From: Candidatus Thorarchaeota archaeon
GTDB lineage: Archaea > Asgardarchaeota > Thorarchaeia > Thorarchaeales > Thorarchaeaceae
Assembly: GCA_048884785.1 (NCBI GenBank)
Contig: JBHLQM010000021.1
Span: forward strand, 1-47,081
Reading direction: 5' to 3'
DNA: 47,081 nucleotides
Shown here: positions 1 to 9,070 of the stretch, piece after piece
Layout of the letters: every line of letters begins with the position of its first letter
Position numbering within the stretch: the first letter of the stretch is position 1
Program-made: the position numbers and the translations under genes
Notes under the pieces: model-generated
Database searches by the model: none
What the model was told of the DNA's origin: nothing
Seen by the model: the letters and a program-made list of their open reading frames with translations, nothing else

Positions 1-99
1 CTTCGCTAACCCTCCTCCAAGCCCTAGTACGCTTTAGATACAACGGTGGATGACCTCGCGTCATTGTTCCTCGAATTCCTTCCTCGAAACCCACATCTT
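1..99 (-). repeat. Most diverged displaced copy of the actin 3' end (R3), with partial terminator; truncated by the window edge
   Basis: 34-99 on the minus strand reads [20 protein letters not shown]-stop, versus actin [21 protein letters not shown]-stop. There are 13 nt differences in 66, with 9 codons changed synonymously. CTAGTACGC motif at 24-32. Confidence 0.92.
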
Positions 100-155
100 A
101 CGTCGTTGCATATACTTTTCTTATTCATTCCAAGGCGGGCTCTGAAGATAGATTA

Positions 156-1985
156 TTGAAGGGATTGATAGTGAAAGAGTATTCAACGGTTGTAAAATGT
201 CTTCGAGCAAAGATGGAGAGGTGGACTGAATCAGGTCCTGCAACAGGTGCAGCTTTCTCTGTAGTTGCAACAGATGGCCCAATATTCTCAGAAGGTTATG
301 GCTACAGAAACCTTGCTAAGTCTGCAAAGGTCGATAGGGAAACCATCTTTCAAATTGGGTCCACCACAAAAATATTCACGGGACTTGCATTCATGCTTGC
401 TGTTCAGGACGACCTAGTGGCTCTAGATGATAGGCTTGTGGATCATTGGCCTGAGTTCACAATACATAGTCGATATGGGGAGGCTGAATTTCGTAAGATT
501 ACATTCAGGCATCTTCTATCACACCGCTCAGGACTCCCTCGAGATCCGAGAGTAGGAGGTATCTTTGGTTGTCATAAGAAGTACACATTCGAAGAAATGG
601 TAGAGAGCCTTAAGGACTGTTGGATGGTTGCTCCAGTTAACGATAGGTACTATTATTCCAATGTCGGTATGGATACAGTGGCTTACGCACTACAGAAGAT
701 AACTGGAATGAAATATCCAGAATGGGTCAAACAGAAGCTGGGTAGACCTTTAGCGATGTCAACTCTTAGATATGGAGGTGCTGAGGCACTCCAAGAAGAC
801 AATGTTGCCATTGGAAGTGAAGACGGAGTTCATGAAATCACATTTGCTTCATCAGAAGATTATGGTTGTGGTGACGTCTGGATTGGGAATATTGACCTTG
901 CAAAGGCATTGAACCTACTTTTGAACGAAGGTTCCTATGAAGGAGAGGAAATACTTGAGAAACAGCTATTTCGTGAGATCACTAGGCCTCACTTTGCGAG
1001 AGAAAAAGGACACCAGTATGGTCTTGGTGTAGATATAATGAATGGGTTTACTCCTATGATTCTAAGTCATGGGGGAGGGTCACTTGGTTATGCATGCAGC
1101 CTTTACTGGATTCCAAAGTATGGCTTCGGAGTCTGTGTCCAAACAAACTGGGAATCGCTTGGTGGCAAGAAGAATCCCCATACTCTGGCTACAGATGCCC
1201 GTGAGGATTTACTAGGAGTGCATGGTGCCTCATTGGCTAGGCCGATTCCTGATGGATTTCTTGCTGAAGATGTTGTGAGGCCAGCTGTTACAGATCCTTC
1301 TAATCTTGTTGGTTTCTATGCAGGTCTCTGGAATGCATCTGTCATAGTTTCATTTCGGGAAGGTAGATTGTATTGGCATGATAGATGGGAGATGACAGCA
1401 AAGGGGAACGGATACATTCTCCCATCAGGAAATGCAGTTCGATTCAATTTCAAATCAAAGAAATCGAGGACCCCCTATTATCTTACTTACGTGAATCCGC
1501 GTTATCCAGTAGCCATGTTGAATATGTACCGCGTGAAACCTGTTGAACCTCCTTCCCAGCTACAGTTTATCGATGAGAGTACCTCAGAGCAATTGACTGG
1601 AATCTACAAGGCAATATATTATGGAGGCGAGTTTACTTTCAACTTAGCTCTTGTCAAAGAAGGACAGCTCTTCATCCAAACAGACTACGGACTAAGACCC
1701 GTCTACCCTCATGAGTCTAAAGAAGGACTCTTCTTTTTAGGGTACGGGGAAACGGTGCTCTTTGAAGGTGATGAGTTGAGTGTGGGGAATGTACGAGGTG
1801 TGAAGTGGCTGAATCCAGTCGAAGAGTTGGATGACCTTGCAAAGAATAACACAAATCATAGACTCTTGGTCAAGTGGCGACTTGACCAGGTTGCTTCACA
1901 CTTGAAGACTCTAGGAAGAACTAATGAAGCAAAGGAGGTCCTCAAAATCAAGAAGGAGCTCTATCCGCCAAAGAAGAAGAGATAA
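156..1985 (+). CDS. Serine hydrolase, beta-lactamase class C/PBP-like family, with C-terminal extension (cassette gene)
   Basis: SxxK (GSTTK), LLSHRSGL, YxN (YYYSN) and HGG motifs; no obvious signal peptide; the start may be GTG at 171. Confidence 0.88.
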   Translation: MKGLIVKEYSTVVKCLRAKMERWTESGPATGAAFSVVATDGPIFSEGYGYRNLAKSAKVDRETIFQIGSTTKIFTGLAFMLAVQDDLVALDDRLVDHWPEFTIHSRYGEAEFRKITFRHLLSHRSGLPRDPRVGGIFGCHKKYTFEEMVESLKDCWMVAPVNDRYYYSNVGMDTVAYALQKITGMKYPEWVKQKLGRPLAMSTLRYGGAEALQEDNVAIGSEDGVHEITFASSEDYGCGDVWIGNIDLAKALNLLLNEGSYEGEEILEKQLFREITRPHFAREKGHQYGLGVDIMNGFTPMILSHGGGSLGYACSLYWIPKYGFGVCVQTNWESLGGKKNPHTLATDAREDLLGVHGASLARPIPDGFLAEDVVRPAVTDPSNLVGFYAGLWNASVIVSFREGRLYWHDRWEMTAKGNGYILPSGNAVRFNFKSKKSRTPYYLTYVNPRYPVAMLNMYRVKPVEPPSQLQFIDESTSEQLTGIYKAIYYGGEFTFNLALVKEGQLFIQTDYGLRPVYPHESKEGLFFLGYGETVLFEGDELSVGNVRGVKWLNPVEELDDLAKNNTNHRLLVKWRLDQVASHLKTLGRTNEAKEVLKIKKELYPPKKKR

Positions 1986-2020
1986 CCTAATGCTTTTGAG
2001 ATGATTTGGTCAGGATTGGC

Positions 2021-2137
2021 AAAAGGGAGAGAAAGAAGGGAGCCTTGCTGGCTCGCCTTCGTTTACTAGTACGCTTTAGATGCAGCGGTGGATGACCTCG
2101 GGGCCTTGCTCTTCAAACTCCTTGCGTGAGACCCACA
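2021..2137 (-). repeat. Displaced copy of the actin 3' end plus terminator (R2)
   Basis: 2076-2137 matches actin 4514-4575 with 2 synonymous changes. CTAGTACGC at 2066-2074, hairpin at 2035-2060, AAAAGGGAGAG tract at 2021. Confidence 0.97.
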
Positions 2138-2168
2138 AACTCGATTTCGAGCAATTTGACATAGATTA

Positions 2169-2369
2169 TCAATCAGCTGAAGTGGATTCTTGTTCAATTC
2201 GCATGAAAAGAATCCCTGTAAGAAAGGCAATTGCTCCAAACGGAAAAATGACGAAGGGGAGGTGAGCAAAAATCCAAGGATCAATATCATAAAATGGGTT
2301 ATGAAGCTGCAAGAGTAAAGCCAAGAATATGACAAACGCACCACCCATCGCTAGGTGCTTGCCGGTCAT
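2169..2369 (-). CDS. Small two-TM membrane protein (cassette gene)
   Basis: 66 aa with two hydrophobic segments; GGAGGT Shine-Dalgarno just upstream of the ATG. Confidence 0.6.
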   Translation of the reverse strand: MTGKHLAMGGAFVIFLALLLQLHNPFYDIDPWIFAHLPFVIFPFGAIAFLTGILFMRIEQESTSAD

Positions 2370-2539
2370 TTAGAAACCTCCGATTCCTCTAATATCATCG
2401 TTTTCACATAATCATACTGGTGCAAACAATATAGCTCCCATTTTTCGTATCCAAGGTAGGACCACCATTCTTTGGATATCAATACGCACTCAATCCAGCG
2501 AAAGAAAAGAAATAGGATTGAATCAAGATGTGTTCTCAT
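2366..2539 (-). CDS. Possible 57-aa peptide (MRTHLDSILFLFFRWIECV...EESEVSK)
   Basis: Translated manually; below the ORF-track cutoff. Its stop overlaps the start of the 66-aa ORF (ATGA). Confidence 0.3.
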   Translation of the reverse strand: MRTHLDSILFLFFRWIECVLISKEWWSYLGYEKWELYCLHQYDYVKTMILEESEVSK

Positions 2540-2563
2540 AAGAAGAGATGATTGAAATGCCTC

Positions 2564-2676
2564 AAAGGGAGAGATAGAAGGAGAACTCTGCTAGTCCTCC
2601 TTCGTTTGCTAGTACGCTTAGATACAGCGGTGGATGACTTCGGGGCCTTGCTCTTCAAACTCCTCGCGTGAGACCC
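2564..2676 (-). repeat. Displaced copy of the actin 3' end plus terminator (R1)
   Basis: 2618-2676 matches actin 4514-4572 with one change (AAG to GAG, K to E). CTAGTACGC at 2609-2617, hairpin at 2577-2603, AAAGGGAGAG tract at 2564. Confidence 0.97.
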
Positions 2677-2736
2677 GAGGTAAATCGACAACTATTTGTT
2701 TGATATGGGTTCCTCTCAAGAATAAGGGGATTAGAA

Positions 2737-4452
2737 ATGGGAGTTAGATTACTATCTAAATGGGTGGTATGGTCTGGGACTAAACAAAATGAAAGCCTGA
2801 ATTTCTCAGCTGAATCTGACACACAATATGCAGTTCATATTCTTGGCTTTGCTCAGAGAGCATTCTCTGGTAATTATACAATTCTTGTGAATGATAAGAA
2901 GATAACCACTTCAAAGGTGTCCGGTAATTTTGTAGATACAATCAGCATAGGACATCTTGAAGCTGGAAAGGGGTATAAGCTAACAACAGAATTAGAATCT
3001 AAGAAAGGTGAATGGCAAGTCACACTTTATCTTACAGACAGATTCCCTAACGGAAATGTGCCTAGCAGGGCATCTAAAGAAAGAGATCCTCTTCGTCTAA
3101 TTAGTCTAGTTGCTCAATTGAAGAGAGATCGAAGACTTCACGAAGCAAAATATCTTCTTCAAATAATGAGGAAGAAAGCACCTACTAACAATATGATAGC
3201 GCAAGCTTTAGATGAATTGAAGGATGTTGACATATCATTTCAAGAACATTCACCAGAACCAGAGTATGAGGGGATATTTGACCCGAGATTGCTAATCGCA
3301 GCAGGAGATAATTTCCATCGGGAAGGAAACTACTCTGCGGCAGAATTTGCATATAAACAAGCATTGGAGAGAGATCCTTCTAATGCAACAGTCTGGGTTA
3401 ATCTAGGTGTAGCACTTGCTAGACAAGGACGCCCAAAAGAAGCGGAAAATGCATACCGTACAGCAACTGAACTGGATTCTAAGTATCTTCTTGCGTTCAA
3501 TAATCTTGGTGCAATCCTAATAGAGCAAGAGAGATTTGAAGAAGCTATTATTCCAATAGAACATGCAATTTCTCTCGATAAGAATAATCATATTTTATGG
3601 CATAGTCTAGGAATGGCATTCTTCCATCTCAAAAGACACTCTGATGCAAAGGAGGCGTTTGAGAAAGCTTTGATAATCGATCCAAGAAGTGTTCCAACTT
3701 TGATTTCACTTAGTCTGGTCTTCAGAGAGTTAAAGGAATTCAAAAGAGAAAATGAAGTGTTGCAACAAGCAGTTGCATTAGATCCAACACTGATTCAGAA
3801 ACTCAAACTTGGTGCATTGGAATTGGATGATAAGTTGGTAGAACTTAAGGAGATGTTTGCAAAGAGTCAAGAATTGATATCTCTGAAGGAATTCGATAAG
3901 GCATTTGATATTCTAGTTAAAGCAACCAAGAAATTCCCTGAATCTGGCGACATACTTGGAAATATAAAGAATATACTTCCACAGACTAGGCTGAAAGAGT
4001 TCACATACAATTGTCCTACTTGCAATTTCACTAGCAAAGTTCAGCTTCAGCCATCACTTGGTCCAGATGTTGCAATTCTTCAAATTGGAATACATGCCAA
4101 GATGTTTGCAGAAGTTCCAGATAGTATTAAACAGGTTACATGTGGTGCATGTAAAACTCCTGGAGGAGTTACAATTTCACTATGTTTGGATTGCTTTGAT
4201 GGGTTTAAGGGAGTGCTTCATGAACAAACAAGTCGAAAAAATTACTCCTACAACTGTGATAAATGCAATAAACCACTGACAACTAGGGCTGAGAAATCTG
4301 AAACACAATTGAAGCAATTTGAAGAATTGAGAAGAAGAGCTGAGGTAGTCAGCATTGCTATTCAGCGGGTTGATTCTATATTTCCTAAATTCCAATATGA
4401 GAGAGTGCCAATATCAAATCAATCCTATTCATTGTTGAAAGAAAAGAAATGA
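2737..4452 (+). CDS. TPR-repeat protein with N-terminal beta-rich domain and C-terminal Zn-ribbon region (cassette gene)
   Basis: Several TPR motifs (e.g. AEFAYKQALERDPSNATVWVNLGVALARQGRPKEAENAY) and four CxxC motifs (CPTC, CGAC, CLDC, CDKC); visibly more AT-rich than actin. Confidence 0.85.
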   Translation: MGVRLLSKWVVWSGTKQNESLNFSAESDTQYAVHILGFAQRAFSGNYTILVNDKKITTSKVSGNFVDTISIGHLEAGKGYKLTTELESKKGEWQVTLYLTDRFPNGNVPSRASKERDPLRLISLVAQLKRDRRLHEAKYLLQIMRKKAPTNNMIAQALDELKDVDISFQEHSPEPEYEGIFDPRLLIAAGDNFHREGNYSAAEFAYKQALERDPSNATVWVNLGVALARQGRPKEAENAYRTATELDSKYLLAFNNLGAILIEQERFEEAIIPIEHAISLDKNNHILWHSLGMAFFHLKRHSDAKEAFEKALIIDPRSVPTLISLSLVFRELKEFKRENEVLQQAVALDPTLIQKLKLGALELDDKLVELKEMFAKSQELISLKEFDKAFDILVKATKKFPESGDILGNIKNILPQTRLKEFTYNCPTCNFTSKVQLQPSLGPDVAILQIGIHAKMFAEVPDSIKQVTCGACKTPGGVTISLCLDCFDGFKGVLHEQTSRKNYSYNCDKCNKPLTTRAEKSETQLKQFEELRRRAEVVSIAIQRVDSIFPKFQYERVPISNQSYSLLKEKK

Positions 4453-4457
4453 TTTAG

Positions 4458-4513
4458 AAAAGGGAGAGAAATGAAGGAGGGGAACGCTCCCACTCCTTCA
4501 GATACTAGTACGC
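4458..4513 (-). terminator. Actin 3' UTR: GCGTACTAG motif, hairpin and pyrimidine tract
   Basis: Inverted repeat TGAAGGAG-GGGA-acgc-TCCC-a-CTCCTTCA (4472-4500), followed on the minus strand by TTTCTCTCCCTTTT. Confidence 0.75.
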
Positions 4514-5653
4514 TTAGATACAGCGGTGGATGACTTCGGGGCCTTGCTCTTCAAACTCCTTGCGTGAGACCCACATCTTCTGGAACGTCTTTAGCGAAGC
4601 AAGAATGCTTCCGCCAATCCAGACAGAGTATTGTCTCTCTGGAGGAGCGATGATTCGGACCTCGATGTTCTCTGGGACTAGCTCGGTGATCTCCTTGTGG
4701 AGCCTCTCCTTGAGTCCTGGGAACATGGTTGAACCGCCTGACAGGACAACGTTAGCGTATAGGTCACGTCGTAGGTCAACGTCACAAGCCTTGATGGACT
4801 CGACAATGTGCTCATCGAGTGGCATTGTGTCTAGGCCAATTGCACTTGGGTTGAAGAACAGCTCAGGTGCTTGGAAGCGCTCTGCACCGACTGTGATCAC
4901 CTCACCGTCTGGCAGCATGTAAGGCTTGTCAACACCAGCCTTGTCTGCAACGGTCCTCTCCCTCTCGGGGTCAAGGGCTACGTAGCAGAGTTTCTCCTTG
5001 ATGTCACGGACAATCTCCTTCTCTGCGCCGCTCACGAATGAGTAGCCTCTCTGTCTGAGAAGTCTGCGCAGATACTCGGTGATGTCACGTCCTGCAAGGT
5101 CAATTCTTCGAATGGCATGGTTGATTGAGAAGCCCTCGTACACAGGGACAATGTGGGTGACACCATCGCCAGAGTCAATAACTAGACCGGTCGTCCTACC
5201 TGATGCGTACAGTGATAGCACAGCCTGAGTCGCAACATATACAGCGGGAACGCCGAAGTTGTCGAACATCACGGATGCCATGCGTTCTCTGTTCTCTCTC
5301 GGGTTGAAGGGTGCTTCAGTGAGCAACACTGGGTTCTCACTTGGGTCGATCTTCAAGTCGTTATAGAATGTGTAGCTCCATATCTTCTCGATTGCGTCCC
5401 AGTCCTCTACAACACCGTGTGTGATTGGATACACCAAGCGTAGTACACCACGGAGGTTGATGGCCTCTTCTCCGATGTAGTAATCGCGAGTATAGTGGTC
5501 AACGTCTGTCATGATACTCTCATATCGGGGATAACCGATGAGAGTGGGCCAGACGCTTCGGGGCTGATCTTCGCCGGCATATCCGTTCTTGCTAAGGCCA
5601 GTGCCATTGTCGATGACAACTGGCTTTGTTCCAAGAAACTCGTCTTCAGCCAT
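4514..5653 (-). CDS. Asgard actin (eukaryote-like actin)
   Basis: [68 protein letters not shown] and [12 protein letters not shown] motifs; ends in HRCI. Likely start is MAEDEF at 5653. Confidence 0.98.
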
Positions 5654-5744
5654 TTTGATTCGGTCCTCTTTCAATGAATTATACAGAGAGTCTCGCGAGA
5701 AATGAATCTTCCAAAACTCTATGCTGACAATAAGTCCTGTTATT

Positions 5745-5765: not shown

Positions 5766-5987
5766 ATTTCGTCAATTAAATCAAACGAATATATTATATA
5801 TGTATATCATGTGGTTTAATTATGCAATAGGCTGTATGTGCCGAAAACAGGGTTTTGAACCCATTTTCGTTATTTCTGGAAGATTTTTCTATATCGGACA
5901 GTGGTGAATTTCGGACAAAAAAAGGGACAAGAAAGGATATCTACAAAGCATATATATATCATATATATATTAAATGAAGTGAGTACT

Positions 5988-6818
5988 ATGTTATACGAAT
6001 CGGCTGATGATATTGTCAAGAGAGAGATTGAGAGTGTGCGAGCCAGACGGATCATCTTGGACCAGCTTGAAGGAGGACCAAAGACAGGTACAGAACTCAG
6101 AGAGAGTATCAGGAAAGATATGGCTCTAACGCTCATAGATCAGAAGGGAAAGAAGACGGCCAAGGAGAAGAAGGTAGTAGTCACCGATCCCAAGCTCTAT
6201 CATAACACGTCGCATCTGGAATCACTTGGAATTATCAACAGCAGAAGAGAATCAAGGGAGAGAGTCTTCGAGCTCAGTCTGAGGGCGTATCATCCTGTAA
6301 GGCGCGCGCTTAAGGAAGTGGGTCTCATGGAAGTGAATAGACCAGTTGCATATGTCGCCTCCGTCAGACAACCAGACGACCAGAGACCGTTTGCAATCTG
6401 GCTACGTCGGGGAAAGCAGTTCAAGCCAAAGAAGCTTTTACTCTTCACTGAGAGCCGTGTCTGGAAACGTCAGACCCTGAGAAGTCTCGATCGATTCATG
6501 ACTGGCGAGTCCCGAGGGATGATGGACACAGAAACTGAATGGTATGACATTCCCGTAGAAATAACAAGTGATTCGGAGGACCTCCAACGTGGGAACCTTG
6601 AGGCGGTCTACAGTTTCATTCGGAATGAGGTTGTCAAAGTAATACCCACACACGAATTAGTTGTGGATTTATCAATGGGAACTCCACTCACAATTCTCGC
6701 ACTTGTTCGGTTGGCTGAAGAGTACTCTCTACGAGCCATTCACGTTGAGAGCTATGAGGATGAGAAGGGCAGGATCATCCAGTACTATCCACGAGGGAGT
6801 AGTAGTGAATCTTGGTGA
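5988..6818 (+). CDS. Winged-HTH regulator fused to a C-terminal CARF-like (Rossmann) domain
   Basis: N-terminal ArsR-like wHTH (ILDQLEGGPKTGTELR...LYHNTSHLESLGII); C-terminal LVVDLSMGTPLTILAL resembles the CARF D(I/L)(T/S)GG motif. Likely start is ATG 5988. Confidence 0.65.
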   Translation: MLYESADDIVKREIESVRARRIILDQLEGGPKTGTELRESIRKDMALTLIDQKGKKTAKEKKVVVTDPKLYHNTSHLESLGIINSRRESRERVFELSLRAYHPVRRALKEVGLMEVNRPVAYVASVRQPDDQRPFAIWLRRGKQFKPKKLLLFTESRVWKRQTLRSLDRFMTGESRGMMDTETEWYDIPVEITSDSEDLQRGNLEAVYSFIRNEVVKVIPTHELVVDLSMGTPLTILALVRLAEEYSLRAIHVESYEDEKGRIIQYYPRGSSSESW

Positions 6819-7497
6819 GTCAGGGCTACCTTGGCAGCGGATAGACGTCATGGGAAATTTACATAGAATCAGAACTGCCATTTCAGAAGACCTTGCATTG
6901 GTTCCGTCTATTAACACAAGGACAATAAGAAAGTTGAAGCGCTGGTTGGATGACTTGGATTATATCATGGATTGCGTAAAGTCAGCGGAGAACGATGTTT
7001 CTCCTAAACTTAGGCGTCTTCTGGGTTTGGACCTGAATGGCAATGGGCATCTTACAGTGCTACTCTTTCAACCCAGCACAAAGAACCTCTTTCTTGAGAT
7101 TCACACTCACTACTGCCAGAGGAAGAACTCCCATGTTGACTGTGGTGCATTAGATGATCTTGCATCTCTAAGTGAGATGAGTAAAATGCTGGCATTAATT
7201 GGCGATGCGGTGATCGATATGGCTATCCTTCATCACATTTGGACTCCAAAAATTGTGGGCGTGGGCACACTAACACAGGACAGGGCGGACCTTGTGAGTA
7301 ATGAGCACCTCGCAACTATATGCGACCAATGGGGACTCTATGATGCACGAATTCATTTTGACCCTCGAACTTCAACGAAGGCTGAGATAGAACATGACAA
7401 GGGAACCCTAGTTGAAGCGCTCTATGGAGCTATCTATATTGAAAAGGGTTTCAAGAAAGTACGCGAGCTGGTTGTACATCTTTTGAAGAGCAAGTGA
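6805..7497 (+). CDS. Ribonuclease III-domain protein (Mini-III-like, no dsRBD)
   Basis: LALIGDAVID, VSNEHLA and GTLVEALYGAIYIE motifs. Probable GTG start at 6805 after GAGGGAG, overlapping the upstream gene. Confidence 0.8.
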   Translation: MNLGESGLPWQRIDVMGNLHRIRTAISEDLALVPSINTRTIRKLKRWLDDLDYIMDCVKSAENDVSPKLRRLLGLDLNGNGHLTVLLFQPSTKNLFLEIHTHYCQRKNSHVDCGALDDLASLSEMSKMLALIGDAVIDMAILHHIWTPKIVGVGTLTQDRADLVSNEHLATICDQWGLYDARIHFDPRTSTKAEIEHDKGTLVEALYGAIYIEKGFKKVRELVVHLLKSK

Positions 7498-9006
7498 TCA
7501 ATACTCAGCAAAATCGTATTCATCCTCTCTATATGATTTGGGCTCTCTAGAGGGAAACAATTTCTCAAACTTTTTCCTAACAACGTCCCCGTTCTTTATG
7601 TCCGAATAGACTCTCACAGACGGAATTGTTCTGCTCTGTTGTCGTAGTGCTTTGCTTAAGGGGCCACCTTCTTCGGTTTCATCAAGCCTGACGAGATCAA
7701 AACCAGAATCACCTCCTATGAGTATAGGGATGTTTTTGACAAAGTCTTCACCTAATGGCGGCAGTACGACATCTATAATCACATTGCCGGGTGTTTCCAA
7801 CACTTCAAGTTCAGATTCAAGAAGGGCTTCAATGTCTTCAGTCATGTTCCGAAATCGAAGCTGGTCCTCTTGATTAAATGACGCGATTGGTTTTGAAACG
7901 ATGACCTTGAACAGCCTACGGTATCTTATTCTGGCAGCATACTCTCTGACAAAGGGTATCTCAGATTCGCCAAGCCACCGATAAAGATCAGCATCTGTCA
8001 TTCGTGTGAACAGGCCAATGCATTCACTCTTTGACAGATCTTCCTCTTTCATTCTGAAATACGAGGCCTTTGAAGTGAGAGCTTCGGCAACTCTAACTGC
8101 GTGATGAAGGTAGAGGTCAGCGAACATCCAAGACCTACTAAGAATCAGTGCTTCCAGAGAATGAATTGCCTTAATCATGAATGCGCGATGATATTGTCCC
8201 TTGTCATCACGAACGACTCTATTTGTCAGAAGAACACGCTCTGCTGGAAAAATACCCAACTCCACACCACTAAAATGGGCATCTCGAATCAGGTAGTCAG
8301 TCTTATCAATATCAAGTGGACTATCAACAAAATCCGATAGCAACTTCATCACAGGGTCAGATGATCTTCGTTTCAGTACATCAACGACGGAAGCAGGATC
8401 AATCCCATTCTCTTTCAATGTGTCAGCAAGCTTGCTGTGGAGAATCAAGAACATACCCAAATCAGTATGAGTAAGGCCTGCCCAACTCTCCAACGCAAAC
8501 TCAATGGTATGCGATGTGGGAGGATGTCCGACATCATGTAAGAGGGCCACGGCTCTAAACAACTTCTGATACTCCGCATCCAGTAACTGGGATAGGGGAA
8601 TAAAATGGGGACGATTCATGTCATCGCAGTAGTTGACCACTCGAATGCATTTCTGGGCAAGAAAATTGGTACCAATACAGTGTTCAAACCGAGTATGTGT
8701 TGCTCCTGGATAGACAATATGAGCTGGGCCAAGCTGCTTGACATATCTCAGTCGAAGCATCTCCCAACCTGAGATGATATCAAGCTCCCAAGGTTCCAGC
8801 AGGATGGCCCCGTGAACAGGATCCTGTATTGCCTTTTGCCGTGTATGACGTTCTCCAAGCGCCAAAATCCGATTGTGCTCGTCCAACATTCCAGAGATTT
8901 CAGACCAGTTATTGGCCTTTGCTTCACGGGATTCTCGTATGATATCTTCTCGTAGCCCTGTCAGTCGAATGAGGTTCACAATCTCAATATCAAGTTCCGG
9001 ATGCAT
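7498..9006 (-). CDS. HD-superfamily phosphohydrolase (SAMHD1/COG1078 dNTPase-like)
   Basis: DPVHG, RLRYVKQLG, YPGATHTRFEH, LLHDVGHPPTSH and DIDKTDYLIRD motifs. Confidence 0.92.
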   Translation of the reverse strand: MHPELDIEIVNLIRLTGLREDIIRESREAKANNWSEISGMLDEHNRILALGERHTRQKAIQDPVHGAILLEPWELDIISGWEMLRLRYVKQLGPAHIVYPGATHTRFEHCIGTNFLAQKCIRVVNYCDDMNRPHFIPLSQLLDAEYQKLFRAVALLHDVGHPPTSHTIEFALESWAGLTHTDLGMFLILHSKLADTLKENGIDPASVVDVLKRRSSDPVMKLLSDFVDSPLDIDKTDYLIRDAHFSGVELGIFPAERVLLTNRVVRDDKGQYHRAFMIKAIHSLEALILSRSWMFADLYLHHAVRVAEALTSKASYFRMKEEDLSKSECIGLFTRMTDADLYRWLGESEIPFVREYAARIRYRRLFKVIVSKPIASFNQEDQLRFRNMTEDIEALLESELEVLETPGNVIIDVVLPPLGEDFVKNIPILIGGDSGFDLVRLDETEEGGPLSKALRQQSRTIPSVRVYSDIKNGDVVRKKFEKLFPSREPKSYREDEYDFAEY

Positions 9007-9070
9007 GTAATGCCCACCAAGCACAAGAAAGAGTATCTCCTATTAAAAGTGTGATAAGAGGACTAGAATC

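What the first reader, a model, noticed from the sequence alone, without database searches (positions are those of the whole stretch)
34..99. The oldest fragment diverged synonymously, so it once ended a functional actin
Seen: 9 codons differ synonymously (including CGC to AGG for Arg) and only 2 differ non-synonymously (Gly to stop, Pro to Arg). Neutral decay of a local duplicate would not be this biased toward synonymous sites. Inference: this end evolved under purifying selection in a different actin allele or lineage, then began to decay. That implies cassettes carry actin tails between fairly distant relatives.
Basis: partly seen in the sequence, partly recalled or inferred. Interest (0 to 1): 0.7.

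Follow-up and report, generated by a model that had tools for sequence, protein, structure and literature searches.

The report
Cast-off former end of actin gene
Bases 34-99 are a discarded copy of the last 21 codons of this Asgard (Thor-type) archaeon's only actin gene. It differs from the working end almost only by silent changes because it is a former working end of a type that still ends actin in a sister species, and it was pushed aside when gene cassettes were inserted behind actin.

Summary
Against the working actin tail (4514-4579, minus strand), 34-99 has 13 base differences in 11 codons: 9 silent, plus Gly to stop and Pro to Arg. Random change gives such a bias in fewer than 1 in 100,000 trials.

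Its nearest relative is the working end of congener G005 (tree support 99/93). Ten of its 13 differences are states seen in other tails of the genus. Only three are private: one silent and the two disabling ones.

Three parts of the reading fail:
- It is not the oldest copy. Contig C140 continues the array with a more distal copy that is nearly identical to the present end.
- No distant relatives are needed. All units of the genus form one clade.
- The silent bias is not special to this copy. Across 21 displaced tails in 13 genomes and one co-assembled haplotype the count is 90 silent to 10 non-silent.

The closest analogue is the WHO homing elements behind yeast FBA1, but no nuclease or integrase was found here. 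This scan has already reported the same kind of actin-tail array on other Asgard DNA.

The parts
34..99 (-). Displaced actin tail 'c1': stop codon (34-36) plus 21 codons, with an in-frame stop replacing Gly and Arg replacing Pro
1..33 (-). Start of c1's non-coding part (spacer and 5' arm of the terminator hairpin). The rest of the hairpin and the T-run lie on contig C140, which overlaps window 1-77 exactly
100..2020 (+). Cassette holding a beta-lactamase-family serine hydrolase gene (156-1985, antisense to actin)
2021..2140 (-). Actin-end unit 'c2': tail from about -60, stop, hairpin, T-run. 2 silent differences from the working tail, different hairpin loop
2141..2563 (-). Cassette with a 66-aa hydrophobic ORF (2169-2369), no Pfam match
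2564..2679 (-). Actin-end unit 'c3': tail from about -57, stop, hairpin, T-run. One difference (Lys to Glu) from the working tail, different loop
2680..4457 (+). Cassette with a 571-aa TPR protein that has a Cys-rich C-terminus (2737-4452, antisense to actin)
4458..4579 (-). Working actin-end unit: last 21 codons plus stop (4514-4579), spacer, hairpin and T-run (4458-4513)
4514..5674 (-). The only actin-family gene of the genome. It is Asgard, eukaryote-like; the best solved relative is 'HC1 actin' 9wc4

Best explanation
Window 34-99 is the coding part of one 'actin-end unit' of about 125 nt: the last codons of actin, the stop, a short spacer, the terminator hairpin and a T-run. Such units separate single-gene cassettes in a row behind the actin gene. 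This copy belongs to a tail type that is the working end of actin in the sister species G005. For most of its history it was, or descended directly from, a working end. Selection on the actin protein therefore allowed only silent differences from the tail type now in use. Recombination inside the unit then placed a new cassette, together with another end unit, between it and the gene body. Since then it has drifted freely and gained three private changes, two of which disable it. Shown: the repeats, the silent bias, the kinship to G005's working end, the three private changes, cassette polymorphism between co-occurring haplotypes, and body/tail discordance in close relatives. Inferred: the order of events, and that this copy was once joined to this lineage's own actin rather than a close relative's. 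Also inferred is the machinery. The likeliest is break-and-repair or plain homologous recombination between units, as in yeast WHO elements, because no integrase or nuclease was found.
For: (1) 9 silent against 2 non-silent codon differences; fewer than 1 in 100,000 trials under random substitution. (2) The nearest sequence is the intact working end of G005, both in the coding tail (8/66, against 13/66 to G000's own end) and in the hairpin type. That hairpin type occurs in the family only in c1, in its haplotype variant and in G005's native unit. The unit tree places (c1, variant) with G005's native unit at 99/93. (3) The stop is one step from G005's Gly codon and two steps from G000's. (4) Only three c1 bases are absent from every other unit of the genus, one silent and two non-silent, which is about the neutral ratio. 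(5) Silent divergence between c1 and G005's end (6 differences on about 11.5 silent sites) is close to that of the two actin bodies (pS 0.41), and G000's body groups with G005. (6) Working ends do get replaced. G003 and G006 bodies are 96.6% identical but their tails only 84% (Poisson 8e-5), and the divergent block starts between -163 and -70. Among close pairs the tail window ranks 7th of 336 for silent divergence. (7) The pattern is general: 21 displaced tails in 13 genomes and one haplotype show 90 silent against 10 non-silent differences from their resident ends. (8) Cassettes turn over: C140 and G071:C267 are two branches of one assembly bubble between C21 and C47. They share the c1 tail, stop included, where the two contigs overlap it, and carry different cassettes behind it.
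Against: (1) c1 is not the outermost copy. The more distal c0 on C140 is almost identical to the present end (2 silent differences in 15 codons). A simple stack, with the newest copy next to the gene and the oldest farthest and most diverged, does not describe the array. (2) The tails of c3, c2 and c0 are near-identical to the working tail while their hairpin loops differ. The units are therefore mosaics, and gene conversion blurs their history. (3) The two haplotypes start to differ in the 3' arm of c1's hairpin, and the GNAT cassette on C140 ends with only a 24-nt partial unit (3' arm plus T-run). This fits insertion after the terminator, a mode in which a tail need never have been joined to the gene in this genome. 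(4) No tyrosine or serine recombinase, Y1 transposase or reverse transcriptase was found in G000 (91% complete), and no nuclease domain in any cassette ORF tested. (5) The whole argument rests on 66 nt plus about 60 nt of UTR in a metagenome-assembled genome.
Confidence: 0.6

Rival explanations
1. One reading: the tail was copied from the working actin of another lineage and rode into this genome as the boundary of a mobile cassette. It was never joined to this genome's actin and has been decaying since arrival.
For: The haplotype breakpoints fall in the hairpin's 3' arm, and the GNAT cassette carries only a 24-nt partial unit. Both suggest that cassettes can insert behind the terminator with their own unit. 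Units are mosaic. The same tail type sits behind different cargo in G005, C140 and C267.
Against: No donor closer than the congener G005 was found. c1 is about as diverged from G005's end as the two actin bodies are from each other, which fits shared descent. All units of the genus form one clade, so no distant source is needed. No free element, virus or plasmid carrying an actin tail was found.
Confidence: 0.25
2. The silent bias reflects a constraint other than past service as an actin end. Examples are repeated gene conversion from working tails, or a role of the unit as a recombination site, terminator or antisense partner of actin mRNA.
For: The coding tails of c3, c2 and c0 look homogenised with the working tail although their loops differ. 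Units keep a foldable hairpin and a sharp T-run end.
Against: A nucleic-acid constraint would not spare third codon positions specifically. c1 has escaped homogenisation with the resident tail. Its states match those of working tails of other species.
Confidence: 0.08
3. Assembly artefact: the repeats or their order come from mis-joined strain variants in the metagenome.
For: The window starts at a contig break inside the repeat. Two alternative contigs join C21 to C47, and one of them was binned into another genus's genome.
Against: Four units with unique cargo lie within one contig. About 20 independently assembled genomes of the family show the same layout.
Confidence: 0.03
4. A local duplicate of the present tail that has simply decayed neutrally.
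For: It is a direct repeat 4.5 kb from the gene.
Against: Under random substitution 9 silent against 2 non-silent occurs in fewer than 1 in 100,000 trials. Ten of the 13 differences are shared with other tails.
Confidence: 0.01

Closest known systems
WHO homing elements behind the aldolase gene FBA1 of Torulaspora and Lachancea yeasts (Coughlan et al. 2020, PMC7282813; read)
   Same: The target is the 3' end of a highly conserved gene. Polymorphic rows of genes are interspersed with duplicated 3'-end fragments, some intact and some with stops. Many fragments begin at about one position. The working 3' end is far more diverged between alleles than the rest of the gene (85% against 99% there; 84% against 96.6% for G003/G006 here), which gives discordant trees. 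Old ends are pushed outward and decay.
   Different: WHO units each carry an intein-type endonuclease gene, and cleavage was shown by experiment. Here the cassettes carry ordinary accessory genes and no nuclease domain was found. The fragments are about 30-66 nt plus the terminator, not about 400 bp. The host is an archaeon without meiosis. The most distal copy here is not the most diverged.
Tandem accretion of integrase-dependent islands at the 3' end of a gene or tRNA gene, such as ICESt1-type elements and their integrase-less derivatives at fda of Streptococcus thermophilus (from my own knowledge, not checked in a paper here)
   Same: Direct repeats of the host gene's 3' end bound each module. 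The incoming element restores the gene with its own copy of the end. Integrase-less modules can stack.
   Different: No tyrosine or serine recombinase was found in the array or anywhere in the 91%-complete genome. The 5' limits of the repeats are ragged (-66 to -33, and one inside the hairpin) rather than fixed.
Chromosomal integrons (IntI, attI, attC cassette arrays)
   Same: A row of mostly single-gene cassettes of accessory type (toxin-antitoxin, GNAT, hydrolases), each ending in a hairpin-forming repeat that varies in sequence but keeps its fold.
   Different: There is no IntI. Cassettes lie in both orientations. The repeat is a copy of a protein gene's end plus its terminator, and its coding part evolves like coding sequence.

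Membership tests
WHO-type homing element array (host gene 3' end replaced at each homing) | Duplicated 3'-end fragments of the host gene interspersed with inserted genes downstream of the intact gene | tested here: met
   Five units in G000 (C21 plus C140). Arrays in about 20 of 72 family genomes
WHO-type homing element array (host gene 3' end replaced at each homing) | Working 3' end much more diverged than the gene body between close alleles; discordant trees | tested here: met
   G003/G006: body 36/1065 differences, tail 10/63 (Poisson 8e-5). Unit tree against body tree. Among 11 close pairs the tail window ranks 7th of 336
WHO-type homing element array (host gene 3' end replaced at each homing) | Fragments begin at one position that marks the cleavage site | tested here: inconclusive
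   No fragment reaches beyond -66, and three independent copies begin exactly there. Others begin between -60 and -33, and one partial unit begins inside the hairpin
WHO-type homing element array (host gene 3' end replaced at each homing) | Each element encodes a homing endonuclease | tested here: not met
   Pfam scans of about 40 cassette ORFs from 14 arrays found no nuclease domain, even at E up to 0.5 for the unknowns
WHO-type homing element array (host gene 3' end replaced at each homing) | Newest element next to the gene, oldest and most decayed farthest away | tested here: not met
   The most distal copy c0 differs from the working tail at 2 of 48 bases. c1, one slot nearer, differs at 13 of 66
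Integron | IntI-type tyrosine recombinase next to the array | tested here: not met
   No PF00589 match anywhere in G000, while the control genomes all matched. None in the arrays examined
Integron | Co-oriented cassettes each ending in an attC hairpin | tested here: not met
   Cargo lies on both strands. The hairpin is the actin terminator, and it is also present behind actin in genomes without arrays
Integrase-mediated island at a gene's 3' end (att duplication) | Direct repeats that include the host gene's 3' end flank each module | tested here: met
Integrase-mediated island at a gene's 3' end (att duplication) | A site-specific recombinase encoded by the element or the genome | tested here: not met
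   No PF00589, PF00239 or PF01797 in G000. The genome is 91% complete, so absence is not proven
   Only one actin-family gene. All tail matches lie in the array. By contrast, the second 'tail' in G046 is a true 373-aa paralogue

The most novel reading that the evidence does not exclude
The end of actin in these Asgard archaea may be the site of a running conflict. An unidentified nuclease would cut the gene near 66 nt before the stop. Repair from another chromosome would give actin a silently recoded, cut-resistant end plus a new cassette. The 30-nt tRNA-type intron that four relatives carry at almost exactly that position would be another way of breaking the target site while keeping the protein. 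On this reading c1 is one fossil in a dated series of such replacements of a core cytoskeletal gene's end, collected without any integrase.
Probability: 0.15. Interest if true: 0.8.

Novelty: new variant of a known kind. Interest (0 to 1): 0.5.

Why it matters
The fragment is a small fossil, but it fixes a point of mechanism. The copies behind actin are not local duplicates that rot. They are former working ends, or direct kin of working ends. This means the last 21 codons of the only actin gene of a close prokaryotic relative of eukaryotes are exchanged as a module, while accessory genes pile up behind it with no integrase in sight. The three private changes give a rough measure of the time since displacement, and they predate the split of two co-occurring haplotypes. 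The finding also corrects two tempting shortcuts: divergence does not equal age or position in the array, and silent divergence does not imply a distant donor.

Tried and rejected
- Public scans for a free element carrying an actin tail failed. One degenerate tail pattern in viral contigs gave a single hit, a chance 7-residue match in unrelated phage-like DNA. Two metagenome scans gave nothing and one chance hit in high-GC DNA.
- Recombinase families PF00589, PF00239 and PF01797, and reverse transcriptase PF00078, gave no match in G000.
- Pfam found no nuclease domain in first-slot or other cassette ORFs. The endonuclease-headed arrays noted earlier in this scan for Hermod-type genomes were therefore not reproduced in this family.
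- I tried to link a unit to its cargo through cargo homologues. The hydrolase's 61-63% relatives lie on other contigs than the actin of those genomes. An S9 peptidase relative does lie behind actin in G067, after a degenerate unit, which is suggestive but not decisive.
- I considered an RNA origin of the units, because their limits lie near the intron site and at the transcript end. I set it aside: no reverse transcriptase was found, the cargo lies in both orientations, and the repeat limit is 2 nt off the splice site.
- An exact look-up of the actin protein found nothing under the ORF's TTG start.

Full report
**What is at 34-99.** The window is the first 47 kb of contig C21 of a 3.6-Mb genome that is 91% complete. 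A 386-codon ORF at 4514-5674 on the minus strand is the genome's only actin-family gene. It is a eukaryote-like Asgard actin whose best solved relative is 'HC1 actin' 9wc4. Earlier notes of this scan place look-alike loci in Thorarchaeota.

The last 21 codons of this gene, its stop, a short spacer, a hairpin and a T-run make a unit of about 125 nt. The unit recurs as a direct repeat at 2564-2679, 2021-2140 and 1-99. Window 34-99 is the coding part of the last of these copies, called c1 here.

**The observation.** Codon by codon, c1 differs from the working tail at 13 bases in 11 codons. Nine changes are silent. Two are not: Gly to an in-frame stop and Pro to Arg. When the same number of random substitutions was placed on the native tail, no trial in 100,000 left two or fewer non-silent codons.

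**It is not the oldest or outermost copy.**
- Contig C140 (4047 nt) ends with an exact 77-nt overlap to window 1-77, a stretch specific to c1.
- C140 continues the array in this order: the rest of c1's hairpin, an S9-family peptidase gene, and a further unit, c0. Then come a GNAT gene followed by only a 24-nt partial unit (3' arm of the hairpin plus T-run), a small ORF and a TetR gene.
- c0 starts at about -48 and differs from the working tail by two silent changes only.
- Divergence therefore does not track position in the array.

**A second haplotype.**
- Contig C267, binned into genome G071 of another genus, begins with the same 77-mer as C21 and ends with the same 77-mer as C140. That 77-mer is the start of C47.
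- C140 and C267 are thus two branches of one assembly bubble.
- C267's copy of c1 matches it at all 44 tail bases the contig holds, stop and Arg included. Behind it lie a different cassette (another beta-lactamase-family gene) and a different second unit. C267 has no S9 gene and no GNAT gene.
- The two branches start to differ in the 3' arm of c1's hairpin.
- The shared flanks are 90-96% identical. These are diverged co-occurring populations, so c1's disabling changes predate their split.

**Where c1's sequence comes from.**
- Among the 24 native and 14 displaced units I collected from the family, c1's coding tail is closest to the working end of congener G005. It differs at 8 of 66 bases: six silent plus the same two disabling changes. 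It differs from G000's own end at 13 of 66.
- The stop is one step from G005's Gly codon.
- c1's hairpin type is found in the 86 family genomes only in c1, in the C267 variant and in G005's native unit.
- A maximum-likelihood tree of units puts (c1, C267 variant) with G005's native unit at 99/93. All units of the genus, native and displaced, form one clade at 95/91. In other genera the displaced units also stay with their own genus.
- The actin-body tree groups G000 with G005 and G004.
- Silent divergence between c1 and G005's end (6 differences on about 11.5 silent sites) is close to that of the two bodies (pS 0.41).
- Only three of c1's bases are seen in no other unit of the genus: one silent change and the two disabling ones.

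The nine silent differences are therefore standing variation among working tails. Only about three changes, in roughly the neutral ratio, have been added since selection stopped.

**The pattern is general.**
- A degenerate search for the last seven codons plus stop found two or more matches in about 20 of the 72 family genomes that had any match.
- I examined 21 displaced tails in 13 genomes and the C267 haplotype. Within each tail's homologous part, differences from the resident working tail total 90 silent and 10 non-silent. This count excludes G046, whose second tail belongs to a true 373-aa actin paralogue.
- Some displaced tails, for example two in G013 with 11 and 13 silent and no non-silent differences, are more diverged than c1 yet intact.
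- c1 is special only in carrying disabling changes.

**Working ends are replaced.**
- G003 and G006 have actin bodies that are 96.6% identical, but their tails are 84% identical (10 of 63 bases; Poisson 8e-5). The dense block of differences starts between -163 and -70.
- Over 11 close genome pairs, the tail window ranks 7th of 336 windows for silent divergence.
- The hairpin type now native in G000 and G006 sits in the second, displaced unit of G003 and G005.
- The units are mosaics. c3, c2 and c0 have coding tails nearly identical to the working tail but quite different loops.

**Mechanism.** Some features fit replacement of the tail at each insertion:
- the cap of all copies at -66, with three independent copies beginning exactly there;
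- the body/tail discordance;
- the decay of a cast-off end.

Other features fit insertion right after the terminator without touching the tail:
- the sharp common 3' limit at the end of the T-run;
- the 24-nt partial unit behind the GNAT gene;
- the haplotype breakpoint in the hairpin's 3' arm.

Recombination at varying points within the unit, between chromosomes or between units, would produce both kinds of outcome. G000 has no detectable tyrosine or serine recombinase, Y1 transposase or reverse transcriptase. None of about 40 cassette ORFs from 14 arrays has a recombinase or nuclease domain. The cargo found was beta-lactamase-family hydrolases, TPR, LRR, S9 peptidase, GNATs, MNT/HepT and DUF433 toxin-antitoxin parts, nitroreductase, methyltransferase, deaminase and unknowns.

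I therefore favour homologous or break-repair recombination between units over an integrase. The enzyme and any initiating cut are not shown.

**Comparison with what is known.** The closest described system is the WHO homing elements behind yeast FBA1 (PMC7282813). That paper reports:
- rows of inserted genes interspersed with duplicated 3' fragments of the host gene;
- many fragments starting near the cleavage site;
- alleles 99% identical upstream and 85% downstream of that site;
- discordant trees;
- old ends pushed outward to decay.

Four of these traits are matched here. The defining endonuclease gene is not found, and the order 'oldest farthest' is not met. The array works like WHO clusters in its outcome but cannot be filed as a member. 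Integrons and integrase-driven accretion at gene ends share the layout but fail on the recombinase.

**Earlier notes of this scan.** Notes on other Asgard genomes describe the same kind of actin-tail arrays. For Hermod-type genomes they describe a homing-endonuclease-like gene in the first slot. For Thor-type genomes they describe no integrase and an unknown mechanism. I took the WHO comparison from one of those notes and checked it against the paper and my own data. The endonuclease was not reproduced in this family.

**Verdict.** Three additions do not hold. It is not the oldest copy. It needs no distant donor. Its silent bias is the rule for these arrays, not a peculiarity. Whether it once ended this lineage's own actin (my preferred reading, 0.6) or rode in on a cassette from a close relative (0.25) cannot be settled from 66 bases.

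Noticed in passing
Relatives: L014:1887-1916 (+), L017:1562-1591 (-), L018:1563-1592 (-), L023:1563-1592 (-): The actin genes of four relatives in four genera (G006, G013, G018, G020) carry a 30-nt insert with an in-frame stop. Removing it restores the normal Gln-Lys-Met-Trp junction. The RNA folds as helix, bulge, 4-bp helix, 3-nt bulge, hairpin, like a tRNA-type (bulge-helix-bulge) intron, and four pairs show compensatory changes. The site lies within 2 nt of the -66 limit of the displaced tails. Earlier notes of this scan report the same intron in Thor-type actin, one of them with RNA evidence of splicing.
   Followed up: partly
L054 (G071:C267, 3410 nt), with G000 contigs C21, C140 and C47: C267 shares exact 77-mers with C21 and C47 of G000, yet sits in the bin of a genome from another genus. 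It is an alternative branch of G000's own assembly graph (a strain variant of the array) and is probably mis-binned.
   Followed up: yes
L060:2832-3953 (+), genome G046: A second, diverged but full-length actin paralogue (373 aa, Pfam Actin 4e-91) lies 2 kb behind the main actin. It ends in the same seven residues, so it mimics a displaced tail in pattern searches.
   Followed up: partly
L034:1328-2325 and L046 (G013 downstream coordinates 7572-8572): A cassette with an MNT-type nucleotidyltransferase (with HepT in G013) is shared at 69% DNA identity between arrays of two genera. A further MNT plus DUF433 cassette sits in G101. Toxin-antitoxin parts are recurrent cargo.
   Followed up: partly
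L076 (G067:C83), reverse-strand positions about 1200-3560: A 61%-identical relative of the S9 peptidase cargo also lies behind actin in a genome of another genus. A degenerate unit with about 10 nt of tail precedes it, and a hairpin plus T-rich run with no actin tail follows it. The hairpin with T-run, not the coding tail, may be the constant part of a cassette boundary.
   Followed up: partly
window 5901-9024: Three genes lie upstream of actin: a 305-aa ORF without Pfam match divergent from actin, then an RNase III-domain protein (6661-7497) and an HD-domain protein (7498-9024). Earlier notes read the first as a wHTH-CARF regulator kept next to actin in many Asgard lineages.
   Followed up: no
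whole genome G000: No match to tyrosine recombinase, serine recombinase, Y1 transposase or RVT_1 reverse transcriptase profiles in 3.6 Mb (91% complete). This is unusual for an archaeal genome of this size, though mobile-element contigs are often lost from bins.
   Followed up: partly
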